The notes under the pieces: generated by a model
What the model was told of the DNA's origin: nothing
What the model saw: only the letters and a program-made list of their open reading frames with translations
Databases searched by the model: none
Shown: one piece after another, positions 2,779 to 35,188 of the stretch
Layout of the letters: each line of letters starts with the position of its first letter
Numbering within the stretch: position 1 is the stretch's first letter
Position numbers and translations under genes: made by a program
NCBI GenBank assembly: GCA_947584415.1
Contig: CANPWN010000001.1
Location: 13,216 to 77,215 of the forward strand
Length of the DNA stretch: 64,000 nucleotides
Source of the DNA: an uncultured Clostridia bacterium
Lineage (GTDB): Bacteria > Bacillota > Clostridia > Christensenellales > UBA1242
Direction of reading: 5' to 3'

Positions 2779-2787
2779 TATAACAGA

Positions 2788-3272: not shown

Positions 3273-3301
3273 AACAAAAACTGCCAAATGGCAGTTTTTT
3301 T
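3273..3301. terminator. Bidirectional terminator between the convergent PH-domain gene and rluD
   Basis: Sequence aaaaactgccaaatggcagttttttt: GC stem ctgcc/ggcag flanked by A- and T-runs. Confidence 0.7.
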
Positions 3302-4728: not shown

Positions 4729-5089
4729 TTTCCACCCCTTCTGGCAATAAAATGTAAAGTTTGTTTTCTTCAATTGTTGCAATTGAGCCGCTTGTCATTT
4801 TTATTACACCTTCAAAATAGCCTTTTGCGTAGGACTTGTCAGCCGCATATTCGTAGTTTATAAGCACAGGTTCACCACTCTTAAAAATTGAAAGGGCTTT
4901 TTCAAAGTCAACCTTATTTTCAAGATAAACAACCCTCACACCATCAATTTTGTCTGGCTTTTCAATTTTGTCTTTTTTTAAATTAAAAGAAGCCTTTGTT
5001 TCAATTTTTCTATTTTTTTTCTTAACACTATTTTCACTTTGTTCAGATTCAAACCCAAGTGCATTTAAAATTCCACCAAAAAAACTCAT
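4721..5089 (-). CDS. sepF: Cell division protein SepF
   Basis: MSFFGGILNALGF N-terminus and a DUF552-like C-terminal domain. RBS AAGGAG lies 7 nt before the ATG at 5089. Confidence 0.8.
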   Translation of the reverse strand: MSFFGGILNALGFESEQSENSVKKKNRKIETKASFNLKKDKIEKPDKIDGVRVVYLENKVDFEKALSIFKSGEPVLINYEYAADKSYAKGYFEGVIKMTSGSIATIEENKLYILLPEGVEIE

Positions 5090-5223
5090 CCTCTGCTCCT
5101 TATATGGCATATTGTAACATATTCGTCCGCTTTTTCAAAACAAAGACAAATAAAAAAACGACTTGAAAGTCGTTTTAATTGATTAACATCCGCCATATTC
5201 GCAAAAAAATTACATTAACCACG

Positions 5224-5889
5224 CTATTTTGATAAATACCAGTCGCGCTCTTCTTGATTTTCTTTGATATATTTGCGCCTAAATTCTTCTGTAGATTTTT
5301 CAACCGACATTTCAGGGTTAAAATAGTCTTGCAATATTTCAAGATTAAAATTTGTCCCGATCTCTTCTCTTTCCTTCATAAAAAATTGCACTATCAAACG
5401 AAATTGATACGCATCAACATTTTTATTGTCTGAAAACAACAGCGAATCAAACAAACAATTAATTTTATTATAGTTCCATTTTTCAAGCAAAACATCATCA
5501 TTGTTTTCTTGGTTTAAAGGGTCAATTTGAAGTTTTATCCCGCTTATGTCCTTAACAATATAGTTTCCAGGGTCAATAATATACACTTGCCCGTTATAGA
5601 TGACATTTGAAGGATTTATATCACGCAAGCCTATTTTAAATTGATTTAATAATTTTAAATCATCTTGCAAAACTTTCATTTCGTCTAAAACATGCCCCAT
5701 TTTTGTTGGTATGTTTTTTAAATATAAAATGTCTTCAGTATTAAGATGAGGAAGCATATAATCCTCTCGAAACAACTTAACCACTTTGCTATTATATTTA
5801 TATACAATACACTCTGAGCCTTTTTCCGATAACAAGCACAATTTGCTTAAGTCTAAAGGTCTGCCATCAATGTTAAAAAGTTCCTTCAT
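5224..5889 (-). CDS. Minimal protein-kinase-like fold protein (about 221 aa), function unknown
   Basis: LRDINPSNVIY resembles the HRDxKxxN catalytic loop, IIDPGNY resembles DFG, VVKLF resembles VAIK and KGSECIVYKY resembles a G-loop. Start chosen at MKELF (5889); the alternative is 5931. Confidence 0.5.
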   Translation of the reverse strand: MKELFNIDGRPLDLSKLCLLSEKGSECIVYKYNSKVVKLFREDYMLPHLNTEDILYLKNIPTKMGHVLDEMKVLQDDLKLLNQFKIGLRDINPSNVIYNGQVYIIDPGNYIVKDISGIKLQIDPLNQENNDDVLLEKWNYNKINCLFDSLLFSDNKNVDAYQFRLIVQFFMKEREEIGTNFNLEILQDYFNPEMSVEKSTEEFRRKYIKENQEERDWYLSK

Positions 5890-6120
5890 GCTTTTCCTTT
5901 TTTCGCGTTTTAATAATAGCACATCTGTCAATTAAAAGTCAATATCAAAAAAAGAGGCATAATGCCCCCGCTAAAGTTAATTTTAACAACCTGTAATATT
6001 CTTATAAAAAGGCGTATAATACTCGCGAGAACAAATTTAAGCATTACACTCTTGTTTTTTTAATTGAAATTTAATTTAAAAAAATATAAAAAAAGAGCGT
6101 AATGCCCCCCTTGGCAACAA

Positions 6121-6148
6121 AAAAAAGACCCGAAGGTCTTTTTTTTAA
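6121..6148 (-). terminator. Terminator after tuf
   Basis: On the minus strand: aaaaaaaagaccttcgggtctttttt. Stem gacc/ggtc with a T-run. Confidence 0.8.
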
Positions 6149-6153
6149 TTGCA

Positions 6154-7356
6154 TTATTCAACAATCTTTGAAACAACGCCTGAGCCAACAGTTCTGCCAC
6201 CTTCACGGATAGCGAAACGAAGTCCTTCTTCGATAGCAATATCAGTGATAAGTGTGATTGTCATGTTAACATGGTCACCAGGCATAACCATTTCAACGCC
6301 CTTTTCAAGTTCGATTGTTCCAGTAACGTCAGTTGTTCTGAAGTAGAACTGAGGTCTATATCCATTGAAGAATGGAGTATGACGTCCGCCTTCTTCCTTC
6401 TTCAAAACGTAAACCTGAGCAGTAAACTTTGTGTGTGGGTGAATTGAACCTGGCTTGCAAAGAACTTGTCCTCTTTCAATTTCGTTTCTCTGAATTCCAC
6501 GAAGAAGAAGACCAACATTATCTCCGGCTCTTGCTTCATCAAGAAGTTTTCTGAACATTTCAACGCCAGTGATAACTGTTTGTTTCTTAGCGCCCATACC
6601 AACGATTTCAACAGTGTCGTTCATCTTAACAGTTCCACGCTCTACTCTACCAGTTGCAACTGTTCCACGACCAGTGATTGTGAAAACATCTTCAACAGGC
6701 ATCAAGAAAGGCTTGTCAGTGTCACGCTTTGGTTCAGGGATATAAGCATCAACAGCAGCAAGAAGTTCTTTGATGCATGTAACTGATGGGTCATCAATCT
6801 TTCCAGCAGTAACAGCTTCCAAAGCTTTGAGAGCTGAACCTTTGATGATAGGTGTTTTGTCTCCAGGGAAACCATACTCTGTCAAAAGGTCACGAATTTC
6901 CATTTCAACGAGTTCAAGAAGTTCTGGGTCATCAACTTGGTCAGTTTTGTTCATGAACACAACAATGTATGGAACACCAACTTGACGAGCGAGAAGAATA
7001 TGCTCTCTTGTTTGAGGCATAGGTCCGTCTGTTGATGCAACAACAAGGATAGCGCCGTCCATTTGAGCAGCACCAGTAATCATGTTTTTAACATAGTCCG
7101 CGTGTCCCGGGCAGTCAACGTGAGCATAGTGACGAGTGTCAGTTTCATACTCAACGTGAGCAGTGTTAATTGTGATTCCTCTTGCTTTTTCTTCTGGGGC
7201 TTTGTCGATTTCATCATATCTCATAGCCTGTGCTTTGCCGATTGCAGCACTATATGTGCAGATTGCGGCGGTAAGGGTGGTTTTACCATGGTCAACGTGT
7301 CCGATGGTACCGATGTTTACGTGAGGTTTGTTTCTCACAAATGATTCCTTAGCCAT
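6154..7356 (-). CDS. tuf: Elongation factor Tu
   Basis: [18 protein letters not shown] and NKTD motifs; 400 aa. Confidence 0.98.
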
Positions 7357-7436
7357 AATTTAAATTCTCCTTTTTTGTTTTACTTTGCTAGTTTATCATA
7401 CTTTAATAATTTTTCAAAACGATTTAAGCAACTTTT

Positions 7437-9515
7437 TTAATTCTTTTTTGCTCTTTCGCCAACAATCTTTTCGGCGATTGATTTTGGAACTTCCTGATAT
7501 TTGAGAGGTTCCATAACATAGTTGCCTCTTCCCTGTGTTTGAGAACGAAGGTCAGTTGCATATCCGAACATCTCTGCAAGTGGAACTTCTGCATTGACAA
7601 TCTGGATGCCAGCGTTGGTTTCTGTGCCTGTCAGCATTCCACGTCTTGAAGTAAGGTTTCCCATAACTGTGCCAAGATATTCATCTGGAACTTCAACTGA
7701 AACTTTCATGATAGGTTCAAGTAGAACTGGGTCTGCTTTCTTTGCGCCATCTTGGAAAGCCATTGAACCGGCAATCTTGAAGGCCATTTCTGAAGAGTCG
7801 ACTTCGTGATAAGAGCCATCAACAACTGTTGCTCTAAAATCAACCGTTTCATATCCAGCAATAACACCGTTCATCCTTGCCTCAGCAATTCCGTTGTTAA
7901 CAGGTTGGATATATTCCTTTGGAATTGAACCACCAACAGTCTTGTCAACGAATTCGTATCCTGAGCCTGCAGGAAGTGGTTCCATTTCAATTATGCAGTG
8001 GCCGTATTGACCTTTACCACCGCTCTGACGGATGAACTTGCCTTCTGCCCTAACAGGTTTGCGGATTGTTTCTCTGTAAGAAACCTGAGGATTACCAATG
8101 TTAGCCTCAACCTTAAACTCACGAAGAAGTCTATCCACAATGATGTCAAGGTGAAGTTCACCCATGCCAGCAATAAGCGTTTGACCTGTTTCAAGGTTTG
8201 TTGAAACACGGAAAGTTGGGTCTTCACGCATAAGTTTTGCAAGCGCGAGAGCCATTTTTTCTTGCATATCCTTTGTTTTTGGCTCAATAGCAAGTTGAAT
8301 AACAGGCTCTGGGAAGTCCATGCTTTCAAGTTGGATAGGATGTTTTTCATCACAGAGTGTATGCCCTGTGATTGTGTCTTTAAGTCCAACAATAGCAGCA
8401 ATATCACCTGCACCAACTTCGGTAATTTCCTGGCGTTGATTTGCGTGCATCCTGATAAGACGCCCAACACGCTCAGTCTTGCCGGTGATTGAGTTGTAAA
8501 CATAAGAGCCGGCTTTCAAAAGTCCACTGTAAACTCTGAAGAAAGTCAGTCCGCCAACAAATGGGTCAGTCATAATTTTGAAAGCAAGACCTGCAAAAGG
8601 TGCATCCTCACTTGCCTCGCGGCTTTCCTCTTCGCCTGTGTCAGGGTTTGTGCCTTTGATTGGTGGGATGTCAAGTGGAGATGGAAGATAATCAACCATA
8701 GCATCCAAAAGCATCTGAACACCTTTATTTTTATATGATGAGCCACAAAGAACAGGCGTGAAGTGTCTTTCAATAGTTCCCTTTCTTATCCCTGCTTTGA
8801 GTTCATCAATAGTGATTTCATCACCCTCGAAGTATCTTTCAAGCAGTGCGTCATCAATTTCAACAATTTTTTCCACCATTTCTTCACGAAGTTTTTGTGC
8901 TTTTGCTTTATATTCTTCAGGAATTTCGGTGATTTCAATCTCTTTTCCGAGGTCGTCTTTGTAAACTTCAGCCTTCATTGTAAGAAGGTCAATAATTCCG
9001 CTGAAAGTATCAGCCTCGCCAATATTAAGTTGAATTGGGAGCGCTTTTGTTTTCAAGCGTTTTTCAATAGAGTCAACGCAGCCCATAAAGTCGGCAGCAT
9101 CTCTGTCCATTTTGTTGACATAAATGATTGTTGGAACTCTGTATTTTGTTGCTTGACGCCAAACGGTTTCCGTTTGAGGTTGAACTTTATCACGAGCGCT
9201 AAGCACAAGCACTGAGCCGTCCAAAACCTTCAAAGACCTTTCAACTTCAACAGTAAAATCCACGTGTCCCGGGGTGTCAATGATGTTGATTTTGCGGCCT
9301 TTCCAAAAGCAGGTTGTGCAAGCAGAAGTAATGGTGATGCCACGCTCCTGTTCCTGAGCCATCCAGTCCATGGTGGCTTGTCCATCATGAACTTCACCAA
9401 TCTTGTGGTTTTTGCCAGTGTAGAACAAAATTCTTTCAGTTGTTGTGGTTTTGCCTGCGTCAATATGAGCCATGATTCCAACATTTCTGGTCATATGCAA
9501 ATCGGTTGTAGCCAT
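7437..9515 (-). CDS. fusA: Elongation factor G
   Basis: [20 protein letters not shown] and NKMD motifs; 692 aa; str operon context. Confidence 0.98.
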
Positions 9516-9725
9516 TTTTATTTTCTCCTTATTTTATTGTTTGCCTCAAGCAAACTTTTGCAAAGTTTCTTTCGGTTGCCGTCGGGCGAAGCCCTTCTTC
9601 GGCAAAGTTAACTTACGCGATTTTATATTGTCTTTGAGAAATTTTTAAAACCCCCTTCGACAACATTGTTTTTTAATTTTTAAACTTCAATCAGTTGTTT
9701 AATGAAGTTTGAATTAAACATTTTA

Positions 9726-9916
9726 ATCCGGAGTCTCACTTTCACGGAGAAGGGCTTTGCCCGGCGGGAAAGTGAGGCGAACCCTTCTCTCGCAGAAAAA
9801 TGCCCAGCGGGGTTTTTCAAGAGGCGAAAGGGGGCTCGTGGGGTCGGAACGAATTTCAGCGGTTAGGAAAACTTGTTTTCCGTGCCCGCGTTAAGAAATT
9901 CTAGTTCCCCCCACAC
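9726..9916. repeat. GC-rich interspersed structured element, copy A (about 191 nt) in the rpsG-fusA spacer
   Basis: Shares its conserved 5' 56 nt (atccggagtctcactttcacggagaagggct...) and 3' hairpin core (gcggttaggaaa..tttccgtgcccgcg) with 34324-34517. It is locally much more GC-rich than the surrounding AT-rich DNA. On the minus strand it begins 3 nt after the rpsG stop codon. Confidence 0.8.
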
Positions 9917-9919
9917 TTT

Positions 9920-10393
9920 TTACCATCTATAATGTGCAAAGGCTTTGTTTGCTTCTGCCATTCTGTGAAGTTCATCCCTGCGCTTGATTGACGCGCCTGT
10001 TCCATTGTAAGCGTCAATAAGTTCGCCTGCAAGACGAGCGTCCATTGTTCTCTCACCAGTTCTCTTTCTTGCGAAAGTAACAATCCAGCGAATTGCAAGT
10101 GTTTGACGGCGTTCTGGTCTGATTTCCATAGGAACTTGATAGTTTGCACCACCAACACGCCTTGCTTTTGTTTCAAGCATAGGTTTCACATTTTCAAGTG
10201 CCTGATTGAACACATCAATAGGCTCTAATCCTGTTTTTTCCTTAACAATGTCAAATGCACCATAAACTATTCTTTGAGCAAGACCTTTCTTTCCATCAAG
10301 CATAACTTGATTGATAAGTTTGGTTACAGTTTTGCTTTTATAAATAGGGTCAGGAAGGACAGGTTTTTTAACGGCACTATTTCTTCTTGCCAT
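9920..10393 (-). CDS. rpsG: 30S ribosomal protein S7
   Basis: Canonical S7 sequence, 157 aa, str operon. Confidence 0.97.
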
Positions 10394-10448
10394 AATTTCC
10401 TCCTTAAATTCTTTAAATTAACAAAAAAAAGCATAAATCAAAGTAAAA

Positions 10449-10829
10449 TTACTTTGTTTTCTTTGGTCGCTTTGCGCCATATTTGGAACGAGATTGATTT
10501 CTCTTTGCCACGCCGGCTGCATCAAGAGTGCCGCGGATGATGTGATATCTCACACCAGGCAAGTCCTTAACTCTGCCACCCCTAACAAGAACAACGCTGT
10601 GCTCTTGAAGGTTATGCCCAATTCCTGGGATGTAGCAAGTTCCTTCCTGTCCATTTGAAAACTTAACTCTGGCAATTTTACGGAGCGCTGAGTTAGGCTT
10701 TTTAGGTGTTGCAGTTCTCACAGAAAGGCAAACACCTCTTTTTTGTGGACATTCATCAAGAAGAGGGGCTTTTGATTTTTTGTCAAAAGTCTTTCTGCCC
10801 TGACGAACAAGTTGGTTGATTGTAGGCAT
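10449..10829 (-). CDS. rpsL: 30S ribosomal protein S12
   Basis: [12 protein letters not shown]...[10 protein letters not shown], 126 aa. Confidence 0.97.
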
Positions 10830-11098
10830 TTTTTACCTCCTTATTAAGATTTGTCTGAAGGCAAACAAAAATGCCTTTTAATTCTTTTTTAATTAAACAC
10901 GAACAACACAATCACATCAAATATTGTGACTTTGGCAAAAATTTTGCCAAATCAGTGAAAGGGCTTGTCTGCCCCCACTTGTCGTTTGTTTATGCTTCAA
11001 AAAAAGCAGTCTTCGACAACAAGACCTAAATAAAATAACATATAAAAACTCTTTTGTCAAGGAAATTGACAAACTAAAATTTTTGAATCAAAACAAAA

Positions 11099-14000
11099 TT
11101 ACCACGGAGTTTTCGCCTCTGTAAAACCATAAGCTTGCAATCTTGCCAAAATTTCTGCAGGTGTATGCATATTTGGAGTAACCCAACTTTCTATCTTATC
11201 TAATTTTACGATATCTCCAACTATCGCAACTAACGGATGATATGGAAGACCAAGCATAAAATTATCATTATATGCCCATGGCATTGAGTTGCTGTTATTA
11301 AAATCCCAATAGACTTTGCGTGAATTAATAAGGATGGAAATAAAAGTATCTCTATCAGTTGCTCCCACAAGAAATTCACCACCAACATCACCCGGGTCAA
11401 TGCCAAAAAGATAAGTTTCAACAATATCTCCTGTTATACCAGTGTCGCTCGTTGTCGTTGGAAGCAAAGTGTAATAAAATCCGTATGCAAATGAAATCCC
11501 AATGTTTATAGTCGTATTAGCAGTAACCGCTCCAATAAACGCAGAACAACCTTTAATATTTGGAATTGAACTCATCTCATAAATGTCTTGATTCTTTTCA
11601 ATCATAGTGCAACGACCAATGTTAACTTGCCAATTTGTAGCATCAACAATAAAGCCACTTATAAAACCTTCAGTCAAAGCAGAACGTTCACAATAGACAT
11701 TTACTAATGTGATTTGACCATAATACGGAGTTTTTGTAAACACATATCCGCCTATCAATGCACTTGGGGCTTCCCATGTGCTTGTTCCTATACATAAATT
11801 CAAAAAATTAATATTAGAAAGAGTCATTCTGGATGTGGCCCAAATGAAACACGCCATAGGTGCAGCCGTATCAAATTCAGCCACAGTGCCTTGATATGCA
11901 GGAGCATTGTCAATGCAGTTTAAATTGATGATGGAGTGTCCTTGTCCGTCCAATGTGCCACTAAAATATCTGATGGCTCTAAAATCAAATTCTAAAGCAG
12001 TGCAGTCAATGTCATTGTCAAGATAAAATGTCATATCAGAGAAACATTCTGGGCCGTTATAAGAGTAAGAATAATCCGACATTGCTACCAGGCCAGTGTA
12101 ATCAGTGATGTGATACGAGCCGTTAGAGGCTTTTGTTATGCCTGGATAAGAAAGAATTAAATTATCAAACGTTAATGCTTTAACCACCTTACTACTATTA
12201 TCTAGCCTCAAACATGGACGAATACCACAATCCAATGTTTTATTTTTATCACGTAATGCACCATATTCAGTTATTATGCAGGCACGATCATTTACGGAAC
12301 CAAATGAAAGTCCTTCCGAACGAAGCCAATATTCCCCGCCAGCCATCCTAGATGAATTTCGTTCGATTGTGCTAGTTTCTGCTTCACTTGACTGGTCAAC
12401 TTCTCCACCTGTGGCACTATGAGATGCAAGATAATATTTCCCTTCAGGATCGCTCGCTGGACAATATGTGCTGGTCATTTCAGTGTATGACAAAAGCCAA
12501 ACATAATCCTGTGTTTGATAAGTCGTATCATCAAGAAAGTCTCCAGTTGTATTAGTTTTGGAAACAACAAATCCACTATTTAATCCAGCATTCTTATAAA
12601 AAGTATTATTAAGCCAACCTGATATTGAATATTTATCATCTTGCCATGTTACAGAACCCTCACCATCAGAAAAAGGGAATTCTTCTAAAATAGTGTCAGA
12701 TATAACGTCAACTCGCGTTGCTGTTGCAGGGTTCTGTCCATCAATAATCCACCATTTGATTGGTTTTGAATTATATGTGCCAAGTTCTGTGTAATAATAT
12801 ATATGTCCATTTAAGACTTCTGGAGTCCATGTCAATGATGCCTGTTTGACTTCATATTTAAGCGTCAAACATGGACGAATGCCGAGATAAGTTAAATTTC
12901 TTTGATTTAAGGCAGAAAGTCCATATGCAACCCCATTAGACCCCGCAGTATAAATATCGTTTCCTGCCGCTGAACGTAACAGCCAGTTCGTTGTCCCTGT
13001 CCTATAATCAGACTTATATGATGATTCCATAACTGCATAATTGGCAATTGCAAAATCACTCGGAGAGGCCGTTCTGGAGCCAAATTGTGCTAAAGCTGTG
13101 GCTTCATGGTCGTTGTAATATCCTCCAGAACTTCTATGCGAAGATAGATAATATGTTGTATTGCCTTTAGGACTATATTTGTTTAACTCATCATACGACA
13201 TAAGATAAACATAGTCTGATGTGTTTGCTCCACTGCCATCAGAAGTGCTACTTGATGTGTTGTTTTTGACTGTTTCATTCTTTATCACAGATGTCTTGTA
13301 TGACGAAAGCCCAGAGTCTGTAAGAAATGTGCCATTTAACCAAGTGCGAACATTGGAACTACTCCATAAATTATTTGTTCCCGTTGAAAATGGAATATTC
13401 GCCGCAAGTGCAACATCTGAGATTACCCTTATCTCCTTTGTTCCAGAAACTGTGTTTGGATTTGTTCCATCAATTATCCACCATTTGATTGGCTCAACTT
13501 TAAACCATTTCGTTGCACCAGTTGAACCAACAGATGTCCCATTTTTAAAAGTGTAAGATGTGTTATATACCGTTTGACTTCCTGAAACATATTTTTGCCC
13601 AGAAAGGCTATATTCCGTCCATGTTTTGCTACCCACAGTGTATGTTTTTCCCGTTTTGGATGTAGGCGTTGAACCAGAATAATACATTTGAGGATAAGTG
13701 CCAAGTTCGGTGTAATAATATGTATTGCCGTTTAATGTTTCACTTTTCCATGTTATGTTTGATGTTGTTGCCGCCTCACCAACATCTGAGATTGTGGATG
13801 GCTCAGAAATATTGTTTAAAGGAATTGAAATTTGCGGGAAACAAAATAATGACAAAACAAATGCCATGAACAAATATGAAAATGAATGTCTCGTTTTTGA
13901 ATAGATGTTCTTCACATCCATTAGTATAGGTTTTTTTGATATTTTTAGCAAATATTTTTCGACATTTTGTCGAAATTTGCTTTTCTTTTTCTCCTTATTT

Positions 14001-28802: not shown

Positions 28803-29898
28803 CTATATTTTTTGAAGATAATTGTTGATAAATTCTTGAATATCACCGTTCATGACCGCCTGAATATCACTTGTTTCATAACCTGTTCGGTGGTCTTTTA
28901 CAAGAGTGTAAGGGCAAAAAACATAACTTCGAATTTGGCTGCCCCACTCAATTTTTTTGACTTCACCCTTTATTTCTGCCAAGTGTTCCATCTCTTCGCG
29001 TTCCTTCTTTTCCGCCAAACGCGAGATAAGCATTTTCATGGCAACTTCTTTGTTTTGAATTTGTGAGCGCTGCGTCTGACAAGACACAACAATGCCTGTT
29101 GGCAAGTGTGTTATGCGAATTGCCGACTCCGTTTTGTTGATGTGCTGGCCACCAGCACCACTTGAACGGAAGGTGTCAATTTTGAGTTCGTCAGGCTTGA
29201 TTTCAATTTCATCATCCTCTTCAAGTTCCGGCATAACTTCGACTGATGCAAAGGATGTGTGTCTGCGCGAGTTCGCATCAAAAGGCGAAATTCTCACAAG
29301 CCTGTGAATACCCTTTTCCGCCTTTAAATACCCATACGCGTTCTCGCCAGAAACGATGAAGTTGACATTTTTTATCCCCGCCTCATCACCATCCAAAACA
29401 TCCAAAATACTGAGTTTGAAGCCCGCTTTTTCGCTATACATCTGATACATTCTCAAAAGCATCTGCGCCCAGTCCTGCGCCTCAGTTCCGCCTGCGCCGG
29501 CATGAATGTTCATGATCGCGTTGCAGGAGTCATATTTGCCATTCAAAAGCGTGACAATCTTCATCTCTTCCTGCCGCTTTTCAAAACTTAAAAGCTCGGA
29601 TTGAAGCTCCTTGAAAAGCTCGCTGTCCTCGTCCGCCTCGCACAGTTCAATGAGCGCCGCGATGTCGTCCGCCTGCTTTTGCAAGGACTGCACTTCTTCC
29701 AATTTTCTTTCCTTGCTTCTCAGCTTTTTGCCCACTTCGCTCGCCTTTTTTGTGTCAAGATAAAAGTCAGGGCTCAGCTGCGCCTCTTTCAAAGCTTTAA
29801 CTTCGCTTTCAATGTTGGCGACGTCAAAGACACTCCTTTAAAAAACTAAAGTTCTCTTGCAAGGTCTTAAACCTGTTTTTTTCGTTATCAACAACCAT
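28803..29898 (-). CDS. prfB: Peptide chain release factor 2, with programmed +1 frameshift
   Basis: ORF0 runs from the ATG at 29898 for 24 codons to CTT TGA C (29829-29823), preceded by the SD-like AGGAG. The +1 frame continues DVANIESEVKALKEAQLSPDFY into the 329-aa ORF carrying SPF and GGQ (SGAGGQHINK). Confidence 0.93.
29823..29840 (-). promoter_or_regulatory. RF2 autoregulatory +1 frameshift site
   Basis: aaAGGAGtgtCTTTGAC: an internal SD, a 3-nt spacer, and the CUU UGA C slippery/stop context. Confidence 0.9.
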
Positions 29899-29919
29899 AT
29901 TTTCCTCTTTAACGCAAAG

Positions 29920-29948
29920 AGTATAACAAAAACGGAAACATTTGTCAA
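29920..29948 (-). promoter_or_regulatory. Sigma-A promoter of prfB
   Basis: TTGACA-17 nt-TATACT on the minus strand. Confidence 0.65.
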
Positions 29949-29963
29949 AAGAATAAAGTTTAA

Positions 29964-29991
29964 TAAAAAAACAAGGCTTTAAGAACCTTGC
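29964..29991 (-). terminator. Terminator of the hexapeptide-protein/sORF transcript
   Basis: Stem caagg/ccttg overlaps the sORF stop codon and is followed by T7 on the minus strand. Confidence 0.7.
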
Positions 29992-30095
29992 TTTTTGTTA
30001 GTTTTCTTTTTCTTAGTGTCAAACAATTCGTTGAACAAATCTTTATTTTCAGCATATTCTTTATCAAGTAAGTCCATAAGTTTTTGGATATCCAT
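29979..30095 (-). CDS. 38-aa sORF downstream of the hexapeptide-repeat protein
   Basis: GGAGGcgaaatATG begins 12 nt after the upstream stop. Peptide: MDIQKLMDLLDKEYAENKDLFNELFDTKKKKTNKKQGS. The terminator overlaps its stop. It falls below the ORF-track size cutoff. Confidence 0.55.
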   Translation of the reverse strand: MDIQKLMDLLDKEYAENKDLFNELFDTKKKKTNKKQGS

Positions 30096-30107
30096 ATTTC
30101 GCCTCCA

Positions 30108-32738
30108 TTACTTACCCAAATTTTCCAATGCAGCATCAACCTCGTCAATAATCTCTTCATTATTCATAAGGCTTGAGATATAGCCCAGTGCATCAGCGGG
30201 AATGTCATCAGTAAGTTTTTGTTGCATCTCTTCTGTGATAGCTTGTTTCACAGTTGCACTTGAGCATTTAGCAACCAGCCTAAAAGTTTTGAACAACTCT
30301 TCTACACTCTCAATATCAACATTATCACCGTCAGCATATTTATCAATATCTTGTGCCAATTTCACAACTCTTGCTGCGTAAGATTTCATATTTCTAACGG
30401 TTGGGCGCTTGTCTTCAGGCAACCTGCCAAACAACTTTTGTGACGCTTTGTCAAATGTTTTGCGATACATAATCACATCCATGTAATCTTCGAATATTAC
30501 TTTATCATCTTCACCTAACAAAGATGTCCCGAGCATTGTAAGTCCAGCAAGTGTGAGCATGTCCTGTGCGCCAAGTTGTTGCATATCATCTTCCAAGGTC
30601 TTTTCGCTTTCAAGGGCTTTAAGACCTCTTTCTCTATCAGTCTTATACCAAACGCTTTCTTGCTCATTAGAAATCTCTTCCGCTTCTTCTTCTGGCTGTT
30701 CTGCCTCTACTTCAGCATTTTCTTCCTCAGCCTTTTCTTCCTCAGCCTTTTCTTCCTCTTTTGCAACATAACCTGTTACAGTGCCTGTGTCAACTTTCCC
30801 GTCAACTATTGCTTGTCCACAAACATTGGCATCACCACAAACTTCTGCGCCTTTGTTTATTTTGGCATTTCCATAAACTTCTGCATTGCCATAAACAACA
30901 CAGCCATTCAATTCTGCTTTGCCATACACTTCTGCACCATCAGACACAACCGAATTGATAACTTTTGCGGCTCCATAAATTTCAGCATCATTAAGAATCA
31001 AACTTTTTTCAACTCTTGCTGCTCCATAAACTTCAGCATCACCTTCTACTATTGAATTCTTAATGCTTGCAACACCATAAATCTCGCCACCATAAATTAA
31101 AGATGAATTTACATTTGCAACGCCATATACTTCAGAGCTTATTAAAAATGATTTTTTTATAAGTGCCTTTTCGTAAATATCAGACACTATAATTAAAGAA
31201 TCTTCAATTTTAGTGTCATCGGAAATGTTTGTTTGACCTATCAAATATGAACTTTTGATGTTTGGCGTTCCAAAAATACATGCTTCTTCATCCATCCATG
31301 ACTCTCCGTCATCTTGCCAATCACCTAGTGCATTTAATTCAACAAAACCGCCAAGTGTTCCTTCTTTAATTTCACAATCGAATTCGCCTTTGTCCATATC
31401 TTCAACAAATTCTTCCATGTCTTTCTTAAAATCTTCATCGTCAATTTCAGACATACCCGAATTCAAAGCCTTTTTCGCAAGTTTCTTTGCAACATCAGTC
31501 GATTTAGCCAAAGAGATGTCTTTCAAAGCGACAATTTGGTTCAGAGTGTATGTGTTACCATTTGCATCTTCAAAATCTTTTGTTATATTTGTTACGCCCC
31601 AACCATTAAGAGTTTTGAGAATTTCATATTCTTCTCCATCTTCTTCTACTTCTTCCTCTACTTCTTCGTCAGGTTGCGCTTCTTTTTGTTTATTGGCAAA
31701 TTCAACTTCAAGTTGTTCTCTAAGTTCCGCCTCAATCTTTTCCCTAAGTTCAGCTTCAACTTTTGCCCTTGTTTTGGCTTCAACCTCGGCAGTTGTCTCC
31801 GCTTTAACTTTGGCAGTGATTTCTTTTTCTACTTTTGCGGTGATTTGAGGTTTAAGTTTGGCTATAAGTTCAGCTTGAACATCATTAAGCAGCGCTGCTT
31901 TACGCTCTTGATATTCTTTTTCATATCTATTTGCTTTGATAACTGATGGCTCGCCTTGTTTTGGTTCAACAACTTGTCCCATCCCAACATTGAAGTCCAC
32001 TTTGGCATATCCACCAATTTCGGCATCACCGTCAATTCTTGCATTGCCAAAGACTTCTGCATTGCCAGAAACACGCGCACCTTTGTTTAAAATAACTCTG
32101 CCACCAGGGAAAACTTCTTCCCCACCGCAAACAGCAGCATCTTCATAAATTTTGACATTTCCTCCGACTTTGGCTGCGCCATACACTCTTGCATTGTCAG
32201 TAACTTCAGCAGAGCCATCAACGCTGGCGCCGCCAAAAACTTCACTATCTCCATGAACATACGCGTTCCCACTTACTTTTGCATTGCCGTATACCTTCGC
32301 GTTGTCAGTTATCAAACCACTATAAATTTGGGCTTTGCCATACACTTTTGCATCGCCATTGATAACGCTTCCTGAATAAGCATATGCTTCACCATACATT
32401 TCTGCGTTACCGCTGATAACGCTTCCTGAGCAAGCATGCGCTTCGCCATATAGTTCTGCGTTACCGCAAATCATTGCATCACTATTAACAACTGCTTTAT
32501 CATACACTTTTGCAGTGTCTCCAATCCACCCTTCTAATGGATAGAACCTTCTTTCTTGATAATTGTAATATCCACCCAAAGTCCCTTCTGTTGCAATAAT
32601 TTTGCCATCTTTATCTGTGATATCTTTGATAGCAACAACACGGTTTAGCACAATATCCTTTCCATTGCGCGTAATGGTTAGGGTTATGTCTGTTACGCCA
32701 AAACAAGTTTTTTCATCTATAATTTTGTATTCGTCCAT
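30108..32738 (-). CDS. 876-aa cytosolic protein with two tandem [small beta domain + left-handed beta-helix hexapeptide repeat] modules, a charged coiled coil, acidic linkers and a helical C-terminal domain
   Basis: Start set at MDEYKII (AGGAGGggaaaATG at 32738); the 908-aa track ORF runs through its own promoter. Strict 6-residue periodicity is visible (YGNAKV SGNAYV HGDSEV FGGASV DGSAEV TDNARV YGAAKV ...). There is no signal peptide. The module heads LNRVVAIKDI..EGTLGGY and LNQIVALKDI..EGTLGGF are duplicated. Confidence 0.8.
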   Translation of the reverse strand: MDEYKIIDEKTCFGVTDITLTITRNGKDIVLNRVVAIKDITDKDGKIIATEGTLGGYYNYQERRFYPLEGWIGDTAKVYDKAVVNSDAMICGNAELYGEAHACSGSVISGNAEMYGEAYAYSGSVINGDAKVYGKAQIYSGLITDNAKVYGNAKVSGNAYVHGDSEVFGGASVDGSAEVTDNARVYGAAKVGGNVKIYEDAAVCGGEEVFPGGRVILNKGARVSGNAEVFGNARIDGDAEIGGYAKVDFNVGMGQVVEPKQGEPSVIKANRYEKEYQERKAALLNDVQAELIAKLKPQITAKVEKEITAKVKAETTAEVEAKTRAKVEAELREKIEAELREQLEVEFANKQKEAQPDEEVEEEVEEDGEEYEILKTLNGWGVTNITKDFEDANGNTYTLNQIVALKDISLAKSTDVAKKLAKKALNSGMSEIDDEDFKKDMEEFVEDMDKGEFDCEIKEGTLGGFVELNALGDWQDDGESWMDEEACIFGTPNIKSSYLIGQTNISDDTKIEDSLIIVSDIYEKALIKKSFLISSEVYGVANVNSSLIYGGEIYGVASIKNSIVEGDAEVYGAARVEKSLILNDAEIYGAAKVINSVVSDGAEVYGKAELNGCVVYGNAEVYGNAKINKGAEVCGDANVCGQAIVDGKVDTGTVTGYVAKEEEKAEEEKAEEENAEVEAEQPEEEAEEISNEQESVWYKTDRERGLKALESEKTLEDDMQQLGAQDMLTLAGLTMLGTSLLGEDDKVIFEDYMDVIMYRKTFDKASQKLFGRLPEDKRPTVRNMKSYAARVVKLAQDIDKYADGDNVDIESVEELFKTFRLVAKCSSATVKQAITEEMQQKLTDDIPADALGYISSLMNNEEIIDEVDAALENLGK
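30718..30758 (-). repeat. 15-nt tandem repeat (2.7 copies) encoding EEKAEEEKAEEE
   Basis: The unit ttttcttcctcagcc is repeated exactly at 30718-30732 and 30733-47, then partially. Confidence 0.8.
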
Positions 32739-32771
32739 TTTCCCCTCCTGTATGAACTTTTTTACGAGATT

Positions 32772-32800
32772 ATTATAAACCCTGTCGTCGTCAATGTCAA
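32772..32800 (-). promoter_or_regulatory. Perfect consensus sigma-A promoter of the hexapeptide-repeat protein gene
   Basis: TTGACA-17 nt-TATAAT on the minus strand. Confidence 0.75.
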
Positions 32801-32848
32801 TACCCAATTTTTCAGGAAAAACGGATAAAAACACGCTTTCCCAGACAA

Positions 32849-32874
32849 CAAAAAAACGGTATAACCGTTTTTTA
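32849..32874 (-). terminator. Terminator after the 399-aa beta-helix protein gene
   Basis: Stem acggt/accgt followed by a T-run on the minus strand, directly after the stop at 32879. Confidence 0.7.
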
Positions 32875-32878
32875 TATC

Positions 32879-34078
32879 TTAATTAACTTGTCCTGCCCAA
32901 TAAAAGTGCCTAAGATGTGGCTGTCCGTCTGCCCCTGTAAACCATTTGGATGGAGTGAAACTGGATTCGATGGCCTCGCCATTGACATAGACACCTTGAT
33001 AATTACACCAATAATAGCTTGGAAAATATTCACCACCTTCAAAAAAAAGCCCTCCATAAGCCAGACAGTTGAATGCACAATCATAAAAAGTAATGTTATA
33101 ATCATGTGTATAACTGAAAAGACAATAGCTACTCCCATTACCCTTATTTATGTAAAATTCACATCCTGTACACGTAAAACTGGAGAATGCGGCAACCTCT
33201 AACAACTGACATAACCACAAATAATTTACATCAATTAAAACATTATTCAAAATGACATCTGCAAACCCCTCGCCGTCATATGTATCAATAATTAAACACA
33301 TACCATCCGCTATAATTACTGAGTCTGTCATGTAGATCTCAGAACGACCATAATTATCTGTATAAGTGGTTCCTACCAAGGTATCACAAATCGCTTCACG
33401 ATTAATAAAATTTAAATCACTTATAATCAATTTGCCATGCAAATTTGCACAAAGATTGCCGCATTCTTTAATTTTTATATGTGAAATGCGGCACATATCA
33501 AATGCGGAACATATGAGAGGAGCACTTATTCCTTCAATAGTAATATTTTGTAAAGTAAAATCACGCACAGAGTCGAACAAGTAATAGCCATCATATGTAA
33601 TAGTATGCCCTTGCCCATCAAAAATACCTTTTATATATTCTGAACTGATAAGTGTTGGTTCGTAGCCAGTCAAATCAAGGTTATCGTCAAGAAGATATTT
33701 ATAATCACTATAAAAAGTCACTTCAGGATTAGCAAGAGCCTCTTGCAAAAAAAGATAGCCATCAATTGAGTTTATGTGAATACTTACACATGATGAAATA
33801 TAAGTCTCATCATATCCTTTCCAAATTCCACTTCCATCATCCTCATAATAAGGCACCATATCTTCAAATTCTGTATATTCATCCGTTACAGCAGTGGCTT
33901 CAGTCGGCAAAGCGGTGACATCAGTGGTTGGAAGAGCATTCAACGGAAGGCAAAGAAGAGCAAAAATAAAAGCCAAGGCGGTTGAAAAAATTATTTTCAA
34001 AAGCCCCGGCTGTTTTGAAAAATGTGGATAATTTTTAGTTAGGCAGTAAGGCTGCCCCCCCCCCCCGGTGGGTAACAA
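32879..34078 (-). CDS. Secreted beta-helix protein (FDGQGHTI motif family); start ambiguous, see poly-G leader
   Basis: The track ORF starts at a TTG. The hydrophobic signal-like segment is KIIFSTALAFIFALLCLPLNA. GIFDGQGHTITYDG plus Cys/aromatic-rich beta-helix-like repeats, ending ..GQPHLRHFYWAGQVN. Confidence 0.75.
   Translation of the reverse strand: MLPTGGGGQPYCLTKNYPHFSKQPGLLKIIFSTALAFIFALLCLPLNALPTTDVTALPTEATAVTDEYTEFEDMVPYYEDDGSGIWKGYDETYISSCVSIHINSIDGYLFLQEALANPEVTFYSDYKYLLDDNLDLTGYEPTLISSEYIKGIFDGQGHTITYDGYYLFDSVRDFTLQNITIEGISAPLICSAFDMCRISHIKIKECGNLCANLHGKLIISDLNFINREAICDTLVGTTYTDNYGRSEIYMTDSVIIADGMCLIIDTYDGEGFADVILNNVLIDVNYLWLCQLLEVAAFSSFTCTGCEFYINKGNGSSYCLFSYTHDYNITFYDCAFNCLAYGGLFFEGGEYFPSYYWCNYQGVYVNGEAIESSFTPSKWFTGADGQPHLRHFYWAGQVN
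34055..34066 (-). repeat. Homopolymeric G12 tract (C12 on plus strand) in the 5' leader of the 399-aa gene
   Basis: Counted directly: 34055-34066 are all C. The tract lies 22 nt downstream of GAGGAaaaaATG (ATG at 34088). Confidence 0.9.
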
Positions 34079-34170
34079 AATGTTTCATTTTTTCCTCGCT
34101 TGTATTTTGTCTATGTGGATAACTTACAAAGGTATTATAACCGAAAATTAGCGAATAACCAAACAAAATA

Positions 34171-34203
34171 ACAAAAAATCCCAAAAATGTTGACATTTTT
34201 GGG
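34171..34203 (-). terminator. Terminator ending the 222-aa gene / GC-element transcript
   Basis: Minus strand cccaaaaatg-tcaa-catttttggg followed by attttttgttatttt. Confidence 0.6.
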
Positions 34204-34318
34204 AAAACGAGCAGTGTTGCCCGTTTTTTTGTTGCACCCGACAAGTTTTTTACTTGGAGACCAATTTTATGGGGGAAGGGCTTTGCCCGACCAAAAATTC
34301 TAGTTGCACCAGCGATTT
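34204..34318. repeat. Two internally deleted copies (C2 34204-34255, C1 34262-34318) of the GC-rich element
   Basis: On the minus strand C2 reads aaaacttgtcgggtgcaacaaaaaaacgggca..ttttccc, matching the copy B 5' hairpin. C1 reads ggtgcaactagaattt..gggcaaagcccttc, joining 5' and 3' motifs of copy A. Confidence 0.65.
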
Positions 34319-34323
34319 TAAGC

Positions 34324-34517
34324 ATCCGGAGTCTCACTTTCACGGAGAAGGGCTCTGTCCGGCGGAAAAGTGAGACGAACACCTCTACCACGTCGCAAGG
34401 CGCAGGTATCAAGTCTTGCAGTGGTGCGAAGGGGGGCCTGTGGGGGGAAACAAAAAAAAGCGGTTAGGAAACAATGTTTCCGTGCCCGCGTTTTCTTTTT
34501 TTGTTGCACCCCACAAG
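34324..34517. repeat. GC-rich interspersed structured element, copy B (about 194 nt)
   Basis: Its 5' 56 nt are about 90 percent identical to 9726-9781, and its 3' hairpin core is shared with copy A. On the minus strand it starts 3 nt after the stop of the 222-aa gene. Confidence 0.8.
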
Positions 34518-34519
34518 TT

Positions 34520-35188
34520 TTAGAACCTCGGTTGATTTATTGGCCCTGTTGCCGTTGGATAGAGCGGCATTTCAAAGAGTCCTGGGCAAGCACTTGATGA
34601 CGGTGCTGCCTGGCATGGTGGGATAACAGGATAACCATAAGATGGCACAAGCACATCAACGAGTGCTGTCACCCTCAAAATTACTTGTAAGCAGCCGGTT
34701 ACAGTGAAGGTGTTTTCAGCCGTGTAAGAGCCAATTTCACTTGAGAACACAGCGCTTGCAGAAATGTTGATTGGAGTGACAGAAGGTTGAGGAACAAAAA
34801 GAATTACGCTTTTTGAAACGGTGATTGTGCTTGTTCCTGTGCCAAGAACGCCGTTTGCATCACGATAAGTCACCACAATTGGGATGGTCACATTTGCACT
34901 CACATTAGCATAGTTTGGGCTGGAGTCAATTCTGTCCACAACAAGGTCAGATATGGTCACTGGACCATTTGTTGCGTTTGCAGCAGAAACATATGTGAGT
35001 GGCAAGGCTGGAGAAGCCGGAGTTAAATCAGTGACTGCAAGCACAATGCCAGTTTCGGTGCTTTGTGACACGCAGGCGTCAAAAACCTTGGTTGTTTCAA
35101 TCAAGATTTTTTCACAAATCCCATTGAGCGGGTTGCCCATAATAGGCCCTGGACGATTAGGATTTGTATTATTGATGTAAAAAGACAT
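34520..35188 (-). CDS. 222-aa beta-rich Thr/Ser/Val/Pro-rich protein, candidate spore-surface/coat component
   Basis: Strong RBS (ataGGAGGtaggaaaATG), no signal peptide, and a Pro-rich Cys-containing tail (PPCQAAPSSSACPGLF). A sigma-K-like promoter lies upstream. Confidence 0.6.
   Translation of the reverse strand: MSFYINNTNPNRPGPIMGNPLNGICEKILIETTKVFDACVSQSTETGIVLAVTDLTPASPALPLTYVSAANATNGPVTISDLVVDRIDSSPNYANVSANVTIPIVVTYRDANGVLGTGTSTITVSKSVILFVPQPSVTPINISASAVFSSEIGSYTAENTFTVTGCLQVILRVTALVDVLVPSYGYPVIPPCQAAPSSSACPGLFEMPLYPTATGPINQPRF

What the first reader, a model, noticed from the sequence alone, without database searches (positions are those of the whole stretch)
30108..32738. 876-aa cytosolic protein made of two tandem small-domain + hexapeptide beta-helix modules, behind a perfect consensus promoter
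Each module begins with a roughly 60-aa head (Y.I....G.T.IT....G....LN.VVA.KDI....EGTLGG). This is followed by 25-30 turns of strict 6-residue repeats (xAxVYG / NAKVSG type), the periodicity of a left-handed beta-helix.

Module 1 is followed by a charged alanine/lysine/glutamate repeat (ITAKVEKEITAKVKAETTAEVEAKTRAKVEAELREKIEAELRE). Module 2 is followed by an acidic EEKAEE repeat (a 15-nt DNA tandem repeat) and a roughly 150-aa helical domain.

From memory, the head+LbH architecture resembles the E. coli YdcK family (..IQALxDF..GDLGGW.. then hexapeptides), whose function is unknown. A duplicated fusion with coiled coil and no recognisable acyltransferase partner is unusual. Expression signals are maximal (TTGACA-17-TATAAT, AGGAGG). 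It may be a structural or filament-forming protein rather than an enzyme.
Basis: partly seen in the sequence, partly recalled or inferred. Interest (0 to 1): 0.6.

Follow-up and report, generated by a model that had tools for sequence, protein, structure and literature searches.

The report
Double YdcK-like beta-helix protein, acquired
This is a real 876-residue, very acidic, probably non-enzymatic protein built from two YdcK-type capped beta-helix modules; the module family is common in phages and conjugative elements and has no known function, and the gene lies in a strain-specific 4.6-kb insertion.

Summary
There is an 876-aa ORF at 30108-32738 on the minus strand. It has two head + hexapeptide-repeat modules that are 31% identical. 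A charged 8-residue-repeat helix separates them. An EEKAE repeat encoded by a 15-nt tandem repeat follows module 2. The promoter is a 12/12 TTGACA-17-TATAAT match with an AGGAGG ribosome-binding site.

The YdcK guess was right. NCBIfam YdcK_fam gives E=3.6e-25, and a family profile hits the YdcK structure 2f9c at E=4.9e-38. All other structure hits are left-handed beta-helix proteins, none a bactofilin. The protein is nevertheless far below the family cut-offs, so it is a divergent relative.

An enzyme is unlikely. No characterised acyltransferase model comes near its cut-off, there are only two non-conserved His residues, and module 2 has none.

New points:
- The module family belongs mainly to mobile elements: phrog_5070 and phrog_7964, at least 574 IMG/VR stretches, phage early regions, and conjugative-element loci with polyvalent proteins.
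- Multi-module relatives recur there, so duplication is not unusual.
- The gene, a coupled 38-aa ORF and a 399-aa gene form a roughly 4.6-kb insertion absent from the five closest genomes.
- The C-terminal 187 residues have no homologue among 1.84 billion representative proteins.

Function remains inferred: a binding or scaffold rod of mobile-element origin.

The parts
32772..32800 (-). Sigma-70-type promoter TTGACA-17-TATAAT (12/12 match)
   Evidence: It is the only perfect match in 29800-34700. This is a consensus match only; activity is not shown.
32744..32749 (-). Ribosome-binding site AGGAGG, 5 nt upstream of the ATG
30108..32738 (-). 876-aa ORF, including the stop codon at 30108-30110
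   Evidence: An identical protein is P0001 in NCBI and ENA.
32559..32738 (-). Head 1 (residues 1-60): beta-hairpin cap ending in EGTLGGY
   Evidence: It is homologous to the YdcK N-terminus.
31983..32522 (-). Solenoid 1 (residues 73-252): about 30 hexapeptides, about 10 turns with an 18-residue period. It contains a 54-nt tandem duplication at 32360-32467.
31677..31937 (-). Charged helical linker (residues 268-354): 8-residue repeat ITAKVEKE, encoded by a 24-nt DNA repeat at 31701-31769
31632..31676 (-). Acidic run (residues 355-369, EEVEEEVEEDGEE)
31338..31631 (-). Head 2 (residues 370-467), with a helical insertion of about 45 aa before EGTLGGF
30774..31289 (-). Solenoid 2 (residues 484-655), with the 17-residue YdcK-type period and no His residue
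30654..30764 (-). Acidic EEKAE repeat linker (residues 659-695), including the 15-nt tandem repeat at 30712-30758
30111..30653 (-). Orphan C-terminal domain (residues 696-876), predicted helical at low confidence
29979..30095 (-). Downstream 38-aa ORF (MDIQKLMDLLDKEYAENKDLFNELFDTKKKKTNKKQGS). Its GGAGG at 30102-30106 lies 2 nt after the stop of the 876-aa gene. It is probably co-transcribed and translationally coupled.
   Evidence: No homologue was found. That it encodes a protein is inferred.
29965..29990 (-). Weak hairpin (CAAGG/CCTTG with a 9-nt loop that contains the stop of the 38-aa ORF) followed by a T7 run. This is the likely terminator of the two-gene unit.
   Evidence: read directly. 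The scan did not call it because the loop exceeds 8 nt.
29973..34540 (.). Strain-specific insertion of about 4.57 kb between the conserved 222-aa gene and prfB. It contains a 440-bp non-coding stretch, the 399-aa gene, the 876-aa gene and the 38-aa ORF.

Best explanation
The gene encodes a soluble, very acidic (net charge -77), non-catalytic rod-like protein. It has two YdcK-type modules, each an N-terminal beta-hairpin 'head' capping a left-handed beta-helix of about 10 turns. A charged alpha-helix of about 85 residues separates the modules. An acidic linker and a helical C-terminal domain with no detectable relatives follow module 2.

The module belongs to a large uncharacterised family whose members are mainly accessory proteins of phages and conjugative elements. 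In phages they are small, single-module proteins in early regions, often in tandem arrays. In conjugative elements they are stand-alone multi-module proteins or parts of ArdC-N, MPTase and ART 'polyvalent' proteins.

This copy reached the chromosome by horizontal transfer, as part of an insertion of about 4.6 kb between a conserved 222-aa gene and prfB. It is expressed from its own consensus promoter together with a coupled 38-aa ORF.

The most likely mode of action is stoichiometric binding or scaffolding of another macromolecule through the heads and the flat solenoid faces, as an element-host conflict or accessory protein. Catalysis is unlikely.

Shown: the fold family, the absence of acyltransferase and carbonic-anhydrase hallmarks, the mobile-element provenance of relatives, the insertion, and the orphan C-terminus. 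Inferred: binding rather than catalysis, the conflict role, co-expression with the 38-aa ORF, and the unknown target.
For: **Fold and family**
- NCBIfam YdcK_fam scores E=3.6e-25.
- The query matches PDB 2f9c (YdcK) at E=2.8e-8, with the alignment starting at the head motif.
- The family profile A2 matches 2f9c at E=4.9e-38. Every other hit is a left-handed beta-helix protein (LpxA, LpxD, gamma-carbonic anhydrase).
- The AlphaFold2 solenoid core has block-mean pLDDT of 86-95 over most of residues 110-200, with a strand every 6 residues.

**Non-enzyme**
- Enzyme models score 10-47 bits against cut-offs of 160-470.
- The protein has only 2 His residues (H101, H162), and module 2 has none.
- No His column is conserved in A1 or A2.

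**Mobile-element provenance of relatives**
- phrog_5070 scores 6e-63 and phrog_7964 scores 2e-59.
- 57 phage records match.
- At least 574 IMG/VR stretches match, with a median member length of 227 aa.
- In phages the gene lies in early operons next to switch, recombination and replication genes.
- In Sfi19 it lies 1.3 kb downstream of AcrIIA6.
- 21 of 144 downstream neighbours are paralogues, and one is Tad2-like.
- The contexts of all seven large relatives examined look like mobile elements. They include ArdC-N, MPTase-PolyVal and ART-PolyVal neighbours and one fusion.

**Insertion**
- Five genomes with prfB 78-84% identical have p222 directly next to prfB.
- L011 carries a different gene at the same site.

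**Orphan C-terminus**
- The C-terminal domain matches only itself among 1.84 billion representative proteins.
Against: - No experiment or characterised homologue exists. E. coli and Salmonella YdcK themselves have no assigned function, and my literature searches found none.
- Foldseek comparisons of the models were not significant (E>=0.016). Handedness therefore rests on sequence homology to YdcK and other left-handed beta-helix structures.
- The insertion carries no integrase, transposase or flanking repeats that show how it arrived.
- GC content is not anomalous.
- High acidity is not a family trait. The median pI of relatives is 5.4, and many are basic.
- PADLOC gave nothing relevant, and no anti-defence library was available to search.
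Confidence: 0.55

Rival explanations
1. It is a bactofilin-like or otherwise self-assembling structural protein. The solenoids stack or the helical parts bundle, giving cytoplasmic filaments.
For: - There is a weak Pfam Bactofilin match, E=1.8e-4.
- Some relatives exceed the bactofilin threshold: phiRM10 gp34 at 40.4 bits and P0005 at 40.5 bits.
- Some relatives are named 'polymer-forming cytoskeletal protein' in RefSeq.
- A perfect promoter and ribosome-binding site suggest an abundant protein.
Against: - The query scores 22.1 bits against the bactofilin cut-off of 27.9.
- The family profile hits YdcK at 4.9e-38 and otherwise only left-handed beta-helix enzymes. No bactofilin structure is hit at E<=0.01.
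- Each solenoid carries an N-terminal cap domain, which would hinder head-to-head stacking (inference).
- The linker lacks heptad periodicity.
- The mobile-element distribution does not fit a housekeeping cytoskeleton.
Confidence: 0.15
2. It is host-side cargo of a variable hot spot, acting as a component or sensor of an anti-phage or anti-plasmid defence rather than as an offensive mobile-element protein.
For: - The site between p222 and prfB is variable, with different cargo in L011.
- Relatives are fused to a dynamin-like GTPase, ClpP or a protein kinase (P0013, P0014, P0074). These fusions resemble sensor-effector architectures.
- The promoter looks constitutive.
Against: - PADLOC gives only a spurious match of the helical linker to a type I specificity subunit.
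- No effector domain is present in the protein or in the insertion.
- The closest contexts are on the mobile-element side: phage early regions and conjugative-element polyvalent loci.
Confidence: 0.15
3. It is a hexapeptide-repeat acyl- or acetyltransferase, or a gamma-carbonic-anhydrase-like enzyme.
For: - Pfam Hexapep_GlmU passes its threshold on residues 559-627 (36.7 against 23.3 bits).
- There are weak hits to GlgC, man-1-P guanylyltransferase, LpxA and LpxD models.
- Databases often name relatives as acyltransferases.
Against: - All enzyme models are 5- to 20-fold below their cut-offs.
- The hits cover only the repeat scaffold.
- Module 2, which carries the Hexapep_GlmU hit, has no His residue. 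The two His of module 1 are not conserved.
- No partner domain and no biosynthetic neighbours are present.
Confidence: 0.05
4. It is a decaying, functionless remnant of a mobile-element gene.
For: - It is a singleton. No relative exceeds 44% identity over more than 27% of its length.
- The C-terminus is an orphan.
- It contains low-complexity acidic repeats.
Against: - It is an intact 2.6-kb ORF in a 40% GC genome with perfect expression signals.
- Both heads keep the conserved family motifs.
Confidence: 0.05

Closest known systems
YdcK of E. coli and Salmonella (NCBIfam NF040481 YdcK_fam; PDB 2f9c and 2pig; Pfam PF18836 B_solenoid_ydck)
   Same: It shares the N-terminal head motif (…A..D…G..GG[WYF]) followed by a beta-solenoid with 17/18-residue coils. 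The homology is significant. YdcK also has no known function.
   Different: YdcK is a single 326-aa module. This protein has two modules plus a charged helix, acidic repeats and an orphan C-terminal domain. It scores 88.6 bits against the 350-bit family cut-off, and 12.8 against 30 for PF18836.
Phage families phrog_5070 and phrog_7964 (for example Streptococcus phage Sfi19 orf229 and Ruminococcus phage phiRM10 gp34)
   Same: These are the best profile matches (6e-63 and 2e-59) and include the head. They have the same head + solenoid plan.
   Different: Phage members are small, with a median of 227 aa. They have a single module, are encoded in early operons and often occur in tandem arrays. They pass the PF18836 threshold, which the query does not.
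Multi-module YdcK-like proteins, and polyvalent proteins of Firmicutes conjugative elements (P0002, P0005, P0098; the ArdC-N/MPTase-PolyVal protein of locus L004; polyvalent-protein concept from PMC5512222)
   Same: They have two or three head + solenoid modules in one polypeptide, separated by helical or other domains, and are of similar size (629-943 aa). They are the closest full-length relatives.
   Different: They are only 22-33% identical. They sit beside ArdC-N, MPTase, ART, topoisomerase, recombinase and cell-wall hydrolase genes. The query has housekeeping neighbours. Their inter-module and C-terminal domains (for example DUF6674) are unrelated to those of the query. The polyvalent-protein paper does not mention this module.
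Bactofilins (Pfam PF04519)
   Same: They have a beta-helix with roughly 18-residue windings and similar hexapeptide-like sequence patterns. There is a weak cross-match.
   Different: The match is below threshold. Bactofilins are short right-handed helices with disordered tails (established knowledge). The profile of this family matches only left-handed beta-helix structures.
Left-handed beta-helix acyltransferases (LpxA, LpxD, GlmU C-terminal domain) and gamma-carbonic anhydrases
   Same: They share the fold superfamily and the hexapeptide periodicity.
   Different: The catalytic His residues and the zinc-binding His triad are absent. All family scores are far below cut-off.

Membership tests
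YdcK family (NCBIfam NF040481, equivalog) | Whole-protein score at or above the curated cut-off of 350 bits | tested here: not met
   88.6 bits, E=3.6e-25. It is homologous but not an equivalog.
YdcK family (NCBIfam NF040481, equivalog) | N-terminal head motif followed directly by the solenoid, alignable to the YdcK structure | tested here: met
   Query residues 456-632 align to 2f9c residues 37-221, starting at the G..GG[WF] motif. Profile A2 covers 2f9c residues 22-295 at E=4.9e-38.
Pfam PF18836 B_solenoid_ydck | Score at or above the gathering threshold of 30 bits | tested here: not met
   12.8 bits. Phage and conjugative-element relatives score 44-137 bits.
Left-handed beta-helix (trimeric LpxA-like) fold | Beta-solenoid with three hexapeptide faces per turn | tested here: met
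   The periodicity is 6/18 in module 1 and 17 in module 2. AlphaFold2 places a strand every 6 residues, with core pLDDT of 86-95 over most of residues 110-200. Pfam Hexapep_GlmU is above threshold.
Left-handed beta-helix (trimeric LpxA-like) fold | Left-handed coiling | tested here: inconclusive
   Model coordinates cannot be inspected. Foldseek matches were not significant, with YdcK the top PDB hit for the module-1 model at E=0.1. Handedness is inferred from sequence homology to left-handed beta-helix structures only.
Hexapeptide acyltransferases and gamma-carbonic anhydrases | Catalytic His (general base) or a three-His zinc site, and a family score at cut-off | tested here: not met
   There are only 2 His residues, none in module 2 and none conserved. 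Scores are 10-47 bits against cut-offs of 160-470.
Hexapeptide acyltransferases and gamma-carbonic anhydrases | Trimeric assembly with active sites at subunit interfaces | not testable with these tools
   No multimer prediction was available.
Bactofilin (PF04519) | Score at or above the gathering threshold of 27.9 bits | tested here: not met
   22.1 bits.
Bactofilin (PF04519) | Polymerisation into filaments | not testable with these tools
   This needs electron microscopy or in-vivo imaging.
Polyvalent proteins of phages and conjugative elements (Iyer et al. 2017, PMC5512222) | Several unrelated effector domains (for example ArdC-N, MPTase, ART, methylase) in one polypeptide, encoded on a mobile element | tested here: not met
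   The query has no such domains and no mobile-element neighbours. Only its relatives lie in or next to such proteins.
PHROG phrog_5070 / phrog_7964 | Significant profile match | tested here: met
   6.2e-63 and 2e-59. PHROGs has no curated cut-offs, and the function of both families is unknown.

The most novel reading that the evidence does not exclude
The YdcK-type head + left-handed beta-helix is a widespread, still uncharacterised 'conflict module' of phages and conjugative elements. It could be a protein-binding inhibitor or decoy delivered or expressed early to neutralise a host system.

On this reading, the protein here is a chromosomally captured, constitutively expressed bivalent version. 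Its two binding rods are held about 13 nm apart by a single alpha-helix spacer. It also carries a lineage-unique C-terminal domain and a partner micro-protein.
Probability: 0.2. Interest if true: 0.7.

Novelty: new variant of a known kind. Interest (0 to 1): 0.4.

Why it matters
The protein itself is a singleton of unknown function. It does point to a very common but unstudied module: YdcK-like head + beta-helix proteins, seen in at least 574 viral contig stretches, two PHROG families and many conjugative-element loci.

The module's positions are typical of anti-defence and host-takeover genes. It lies in early phage operons, next to AcrIIA6 in Sfi19, beside a Tad2-like gene in one viral contig, and inside ArdC-N/MPTase polyvalent proteins.

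If the module proves to be a binding inhibitor or decoy, this would assign a role to E. coli YdcK and to thousands of 'hypothetical' or mis-named genes, which are currently annotated as 'acyltransferase', 'glycerol kinase' or 'polymer-forming cytoskeletal protein'. The practical point for annotation is that these proteins should not be called acyltransferases or bactofilins.

Tried and rejected
1. **Foldseek** of the full-length and module-1 AlphaFold2 models against PDB and BFVD gave no significant match (best E=0.016-0.1, TM<=0.3). Structural confirmation of the fold class and its handedness therefore failed.
2. **The C-terminal 187-aa domain** was searched by word index, Pfam at E<=10, PHROGs (one weak hit, E=0.004), phmmer against 1.84 billion representatives (self only) and tblastn against 174 fetched loci. 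It has no relatives.
3. **The DNA-mimic or anti-restriction idea**, based on net charge -77, was rejected as a family property. Relatives range from pI 4.1 to 9.9.
4. **The canonical coiled-coil reading of the linker** was rejected, because hydrophobic power peaks at period 4.0 rather than 3.5.
5. **PADLOC** returned only a spurious match of the linker to a type I specificity subunit.
6. **Mobility signatures around the gene** were sought. There are no tRNA genes, no Rfam hits, no GC anomaly, no integrase or transposase in the neighbours and no flanking direct repeats at the insertion ends.
7. **The 399-aa neighbour against the 1285-aa protein at the same site in L011** is not significant (E=0.32).
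8. **Literature searches** on YdcK, PF18836, DUF6674 and left-handed beta-helix anti-defence proteins found no functional study. The polyvalent-protein paper does not mention the module.
9. **A tight link to single-strand annealing proteins**, suggested by four phages, was only weakly borne out in IMG/VR. ERF or RecT appeared in 6 of 144 downstream neighbours.
10. **The first IMG/VR scan** with alignment A2 failed because it had no conserved stretch. A head-only alignment, A3, worked.
11. **The 38-aa ORF query was in the wrong frame.** It was repeated correctly.
Full report
**1. What is there**

The minus strand of the window carries an ORF from 32738 (ATG) to 30108 that encodes 876 residues. 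Upstream lies TTGACA-17-TATAAT at 32800-32772, the only 12/12 promoter-like site in 29800-34700. AGGAGG sits 5 nt before the ATG. The terminator of the preceding 399-aa gene is at 32873-32851, so the gene has its own transcription start.

Two nucleotides after the stop codon there is a GGAGG. Twelve nucleotides after the stop, a 38-codon ORF begins (29979-30095). It is followed by a weak hairpin and a T7 run. The ENA gene calls of an identical contig include the same small ORF. That contig is 100% identical over 3,376 bp, so it is not independent evidence.

**2. Anatomy**

- Residues 1-60 and 370-467 are the 'heads'. Residues 73-252 and 484-655 are hexapeptide-type repeats.
- The two modules align at 31% identity (E=1e-25). 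They share head peculiarities (LN[RQ][VI]VA[IL]KDI, EGTLGG) that differ from the family consensus. This argues for an old internal duplication.
- Head 2 carries a helical insertion of about 45 residues.
- Module 1 is strictly 6/18-periodic. Module 2 has the 17-residue period of the YdcK repeat.
- A 54-nt tandem duplication (32360-32467, 87% matches) equals one 18-residue turn. This shows that the repeat array still expands.
- Residues 268-354 are predicted as one long helix (block-mean pLDDT 64-82 over 271-350). The segment has an 8-residue repeat, is 44% charged, and has 18 opposite-charge pairs at i/i+4 against 1 at i/i+3. Its hydrophobic period is 4.0. It therefore looks like a charged single alpha-helix or a non-canonical coil, not a heptad coiled coil.
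- Acidic runs follow at 355-369 and 659-695. The second is encoded by a 15-nt tandem repeat.
- The last 180 or so residues are predicted helical at low confidence.
- The whole protein has pI 4.4 and net charge -77. It has no hydrophobic segment compatible with secretion or membrane insertion.

**3. Family**

- NCBIfam YdcK_fam matches at E=3.6e-25, but with 88.6 bits against a cut-off of 350.
- The solved YdcK structure 2f9c matches at E=2.8e-8, starting at the head motif.
- A profile of the query plus 29 relatives matches 2f9c at E=4.9e-38 over residues 22-295. Otherwise it matches only left-handed beta-helix proteins (LpxA, LpxD, gamma-carbonic anhydrases) and no bactofilin.
- Pfam gives Hexapep_GlmU above threshold. 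Bactofilin (22.1 against 27.9 bits) and B_solenoid_ydck (12.8 against 30 bits) are below threshold.
- AlphaFold2 predicts beta-solenoids with a two-residue strand every six residues. In the module-1 model, block-mean pLDDT is 86-95 over most of residues 110-200 and pTM is 0.67.
- Foldseek comparisons were not significant. YdcK was the top PDB hit for the module-1 model at E=0.1 and ranked second (E=0.062) for the full-length model. Handedness is therefore inferred from sequence homology.

**4. Not an enzyme, as far as sequence can tell**

All enzyme models score 10-47 bits against cut-offs of 160-470. The protein has two His residues (H101, H162). Neither sits in a conserved column, and module 2 has none. 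Left-handed beta-helix acyltransferases use a catalytic His, and gamma-carbonic anhydrases use a three-His zinc site (established knowledge).

**5. Where the family lives**

*Phages and viral contigs*
- The strongest profile matches are two phage families of unknown function, phrog_5070 (6e-63) and phrog_7964 (2e-59).
- tblastn finds the module in 57 phage and 15 plasmid records.
- In Sfi19, phiRM10, Javan174 and phiST1 it lies in the early operon. It sits after the cro and antirepressor genes and just before Rad52, RecT, ERF, Gam or replication genes.
- In Sfi19 the gene lies 1.3 kb downstream of orf183, which is AcrIIA6 (E=2.6e-107 to PDB 6eyy).
Viral members are small, with a median of 227 aa.
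- Of 144 downstream neighbours, 21 are paralogues (tandem arrays), 6 are ERF or RecT, and 1 is Tad2-like. Most have no family.

*Large relatives*
- The large relatives closest to the query all sit in contexts that look like mobile elements.
- P0002, P0005 and P0098 are in conjugative elements beside ArdC-N, MPTase-PolyVal and ART-PolyVal proteins, topoisomerase, recombinases and cell-wall hydrolases.
- P0004, P0034 and P0018 are in phage-like contigs, two of them next to a Pnkp-type RNA-repair enzyme. P0032 is next to a ParM-like gene and type I methylase genes.
- In locus L004, at least 8 modules occur within 10 kb, including inside the 1,693-aa ArdC-N/MPTase protein and the ART protein.
- At least 12 of 107 relatives have two or three modules. 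The duplicated plan is therefore a recurrent theme rather than an oddity.

**6. Genomic setting of this copy**

- The neighbours are housekeeping genes: fakA, an FtsJ/S4-domain methyltransferase gene, alr, prfB (with its canonical CTT TGA C frameshift site), tsaD, a U32 peptidase gene and hrcA.
- In the five most similar genomes available (prfB 78-84% identical), the order is fakA, the FtsJ-type methyltransferase gene, alr, p222, prfB, tsaD, U32. About 50 bp of unaligned sequence lies between p222 and the prfB leader.
- In the window, 4,569 bp are intercalated at 29973-34540. They contain a 440-bp non-coding stretch, the 399-aa gene, the 876-aa gene and the 38-aa ORF.
- A sixth genome (L011) has a different 1,285-aa secreted protein at the same place, so the site is a variable hot spot.
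- No integrase, tRNA, flanking repeat or GC anomaly marks the insertion.
- The full-length architecture is a singleton. The next best protein is 33-44% identical over at most 27% of the length. The C-terminal domain has no relative among 1.84 billion representative proteins.

**7. Interpretation**

The shown facts fit a horizontally acquired, non-catalytic, elongated protein built from two YdcK-type capped solenoids. By analogy with its relatives' settings, it most probably acts by binding another macromolecule, as an accessory or 'conflict' protein. Those settings are early phage genes, anti-defence neighbourhoods, polyvalent proteins, tandem arrays and high divergence. That step is inference, and no target can be named.

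The filament (bactofilin-like), host-defence and enzyme readings remain possible with decreasing likelihood. Nothing supports a spore connection.

**8. Novelty and score**

The family is known but uncharacterised: YdcK, PF18836 and the two PHROG families. This protein is a divergent variant with a unique combination of two modules, a charged helix, an orphan C-terminal domain and a coupled micro-ORF. It is worth noting mainly as an entry point to a very common unstudied mobile-element module. As a single locus it is moderately interesting (0.4).

Noticed in passing
window 29979-30095 (-): This is a 38-aa ORF (acidic amphipathic N-terminal half, Lys-rich tail). Its own GGAGG lies 2 nt after the stop of the 876-aa gene, so it is probably translationally coupled. 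No homologue was found in Pfam, PHROGs or any fetched locus.
   Followed up: partly
window 29973-34540; compare L008, L009, L010, L012, L030 and L011: The interval between the 222-aa gene and prfB is a variable hot spot. It is empty in five related genomes and holds a 1,285-aa secreted repeat protein in L011. Here it holds the 399-aa + 876-aa + 38-aa set. No mobility gene or flanking repeat is present.
   Followed up: yes
window 32879-34078 (-): This 399-aa ORF has a hydrophobic N-terminal stretch that looks like a signal peptide, and no Pfam or PHROG family. It shares only a short 'DLDL...GQGHTI' motif with the L011 surface protein (E=0.32).
   Followed up: partly
window 34079-34519: This 440-bp non-coding stretch is relatively GC-rich. 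It has a 26-nt direct repeat (34224-34249 and 34496-34521, 96% identical) and a 20-nt inverted repeat (34439-34458 and 34496-34515). It has no Rfam match, and its meaning is unknown.
   Followed up: no
window 34520-35188 (-): This 222-aa protein is conserved at 71-86% identity next to or near prfB in related Clostridia genomes. It matches no Pfam or PHROG family.
   Followed up: partly
window 32360-32467: A 54-nt tandem duplication (87% matches) equals exactly one 18-residue solenoid turn. It is evidence of recent repeat expansion inside module 1.
   Followed up: partly
window 29823-29829 (-), prfB leader: prfB carries the canonical programmed +1 frameshift site (AGGAG ... CTT TGA C). An 11/12 promoter-like site (TTGACA-17-TATACT, with TG) lies at 29948-29920, just after the insertion.
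   Followed up: partly
L002 (Streptococcus phage Sfi19) 2024-2575: Sfi19 orf183 is AcrIIA6 (E=2.6e-107 to PDB 6eyy). It lies 1.3 kb upstream of the YdcK-like orf229 in the same gene string.
   Followed up: yes
L004 (ENA ERZ28574957 scaffold_115) 1275-11617: This conjugative-element region holds at least 8 YdcK-type head + solenoid modules spread over five consecutive genes. They include a 1,693-aa ArdC-N/MPTase-PolyVal protein and an ART-PolyVal protein.
   Followed up: partly
L094 (S. salivarius linear plasmid pIKMIN-B502) 2800-6964: This is an array of four paralogous genes annotated 'polymer-forming cytoskeletal protein'. At least one of them (locus 3569-4561) is the YdcK-like match to the query (H31), so the annotation is probably wrong for that gene; the other three were not compared. 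L005 and L091 show similar tandem arrays.
   Followed up: no
L088 and L090 (phage-like contigs): YdcK-like genes lie next to or near a 738-aa AAA_33 + metallophosphatase + T4 RNA-ligase (Pnkp-like) RNA-repair gene: adjacent in L090, two small ORFs away in L088. Such enzymes are phage counter-measures to anticodon nucleases.
   Followed up: no
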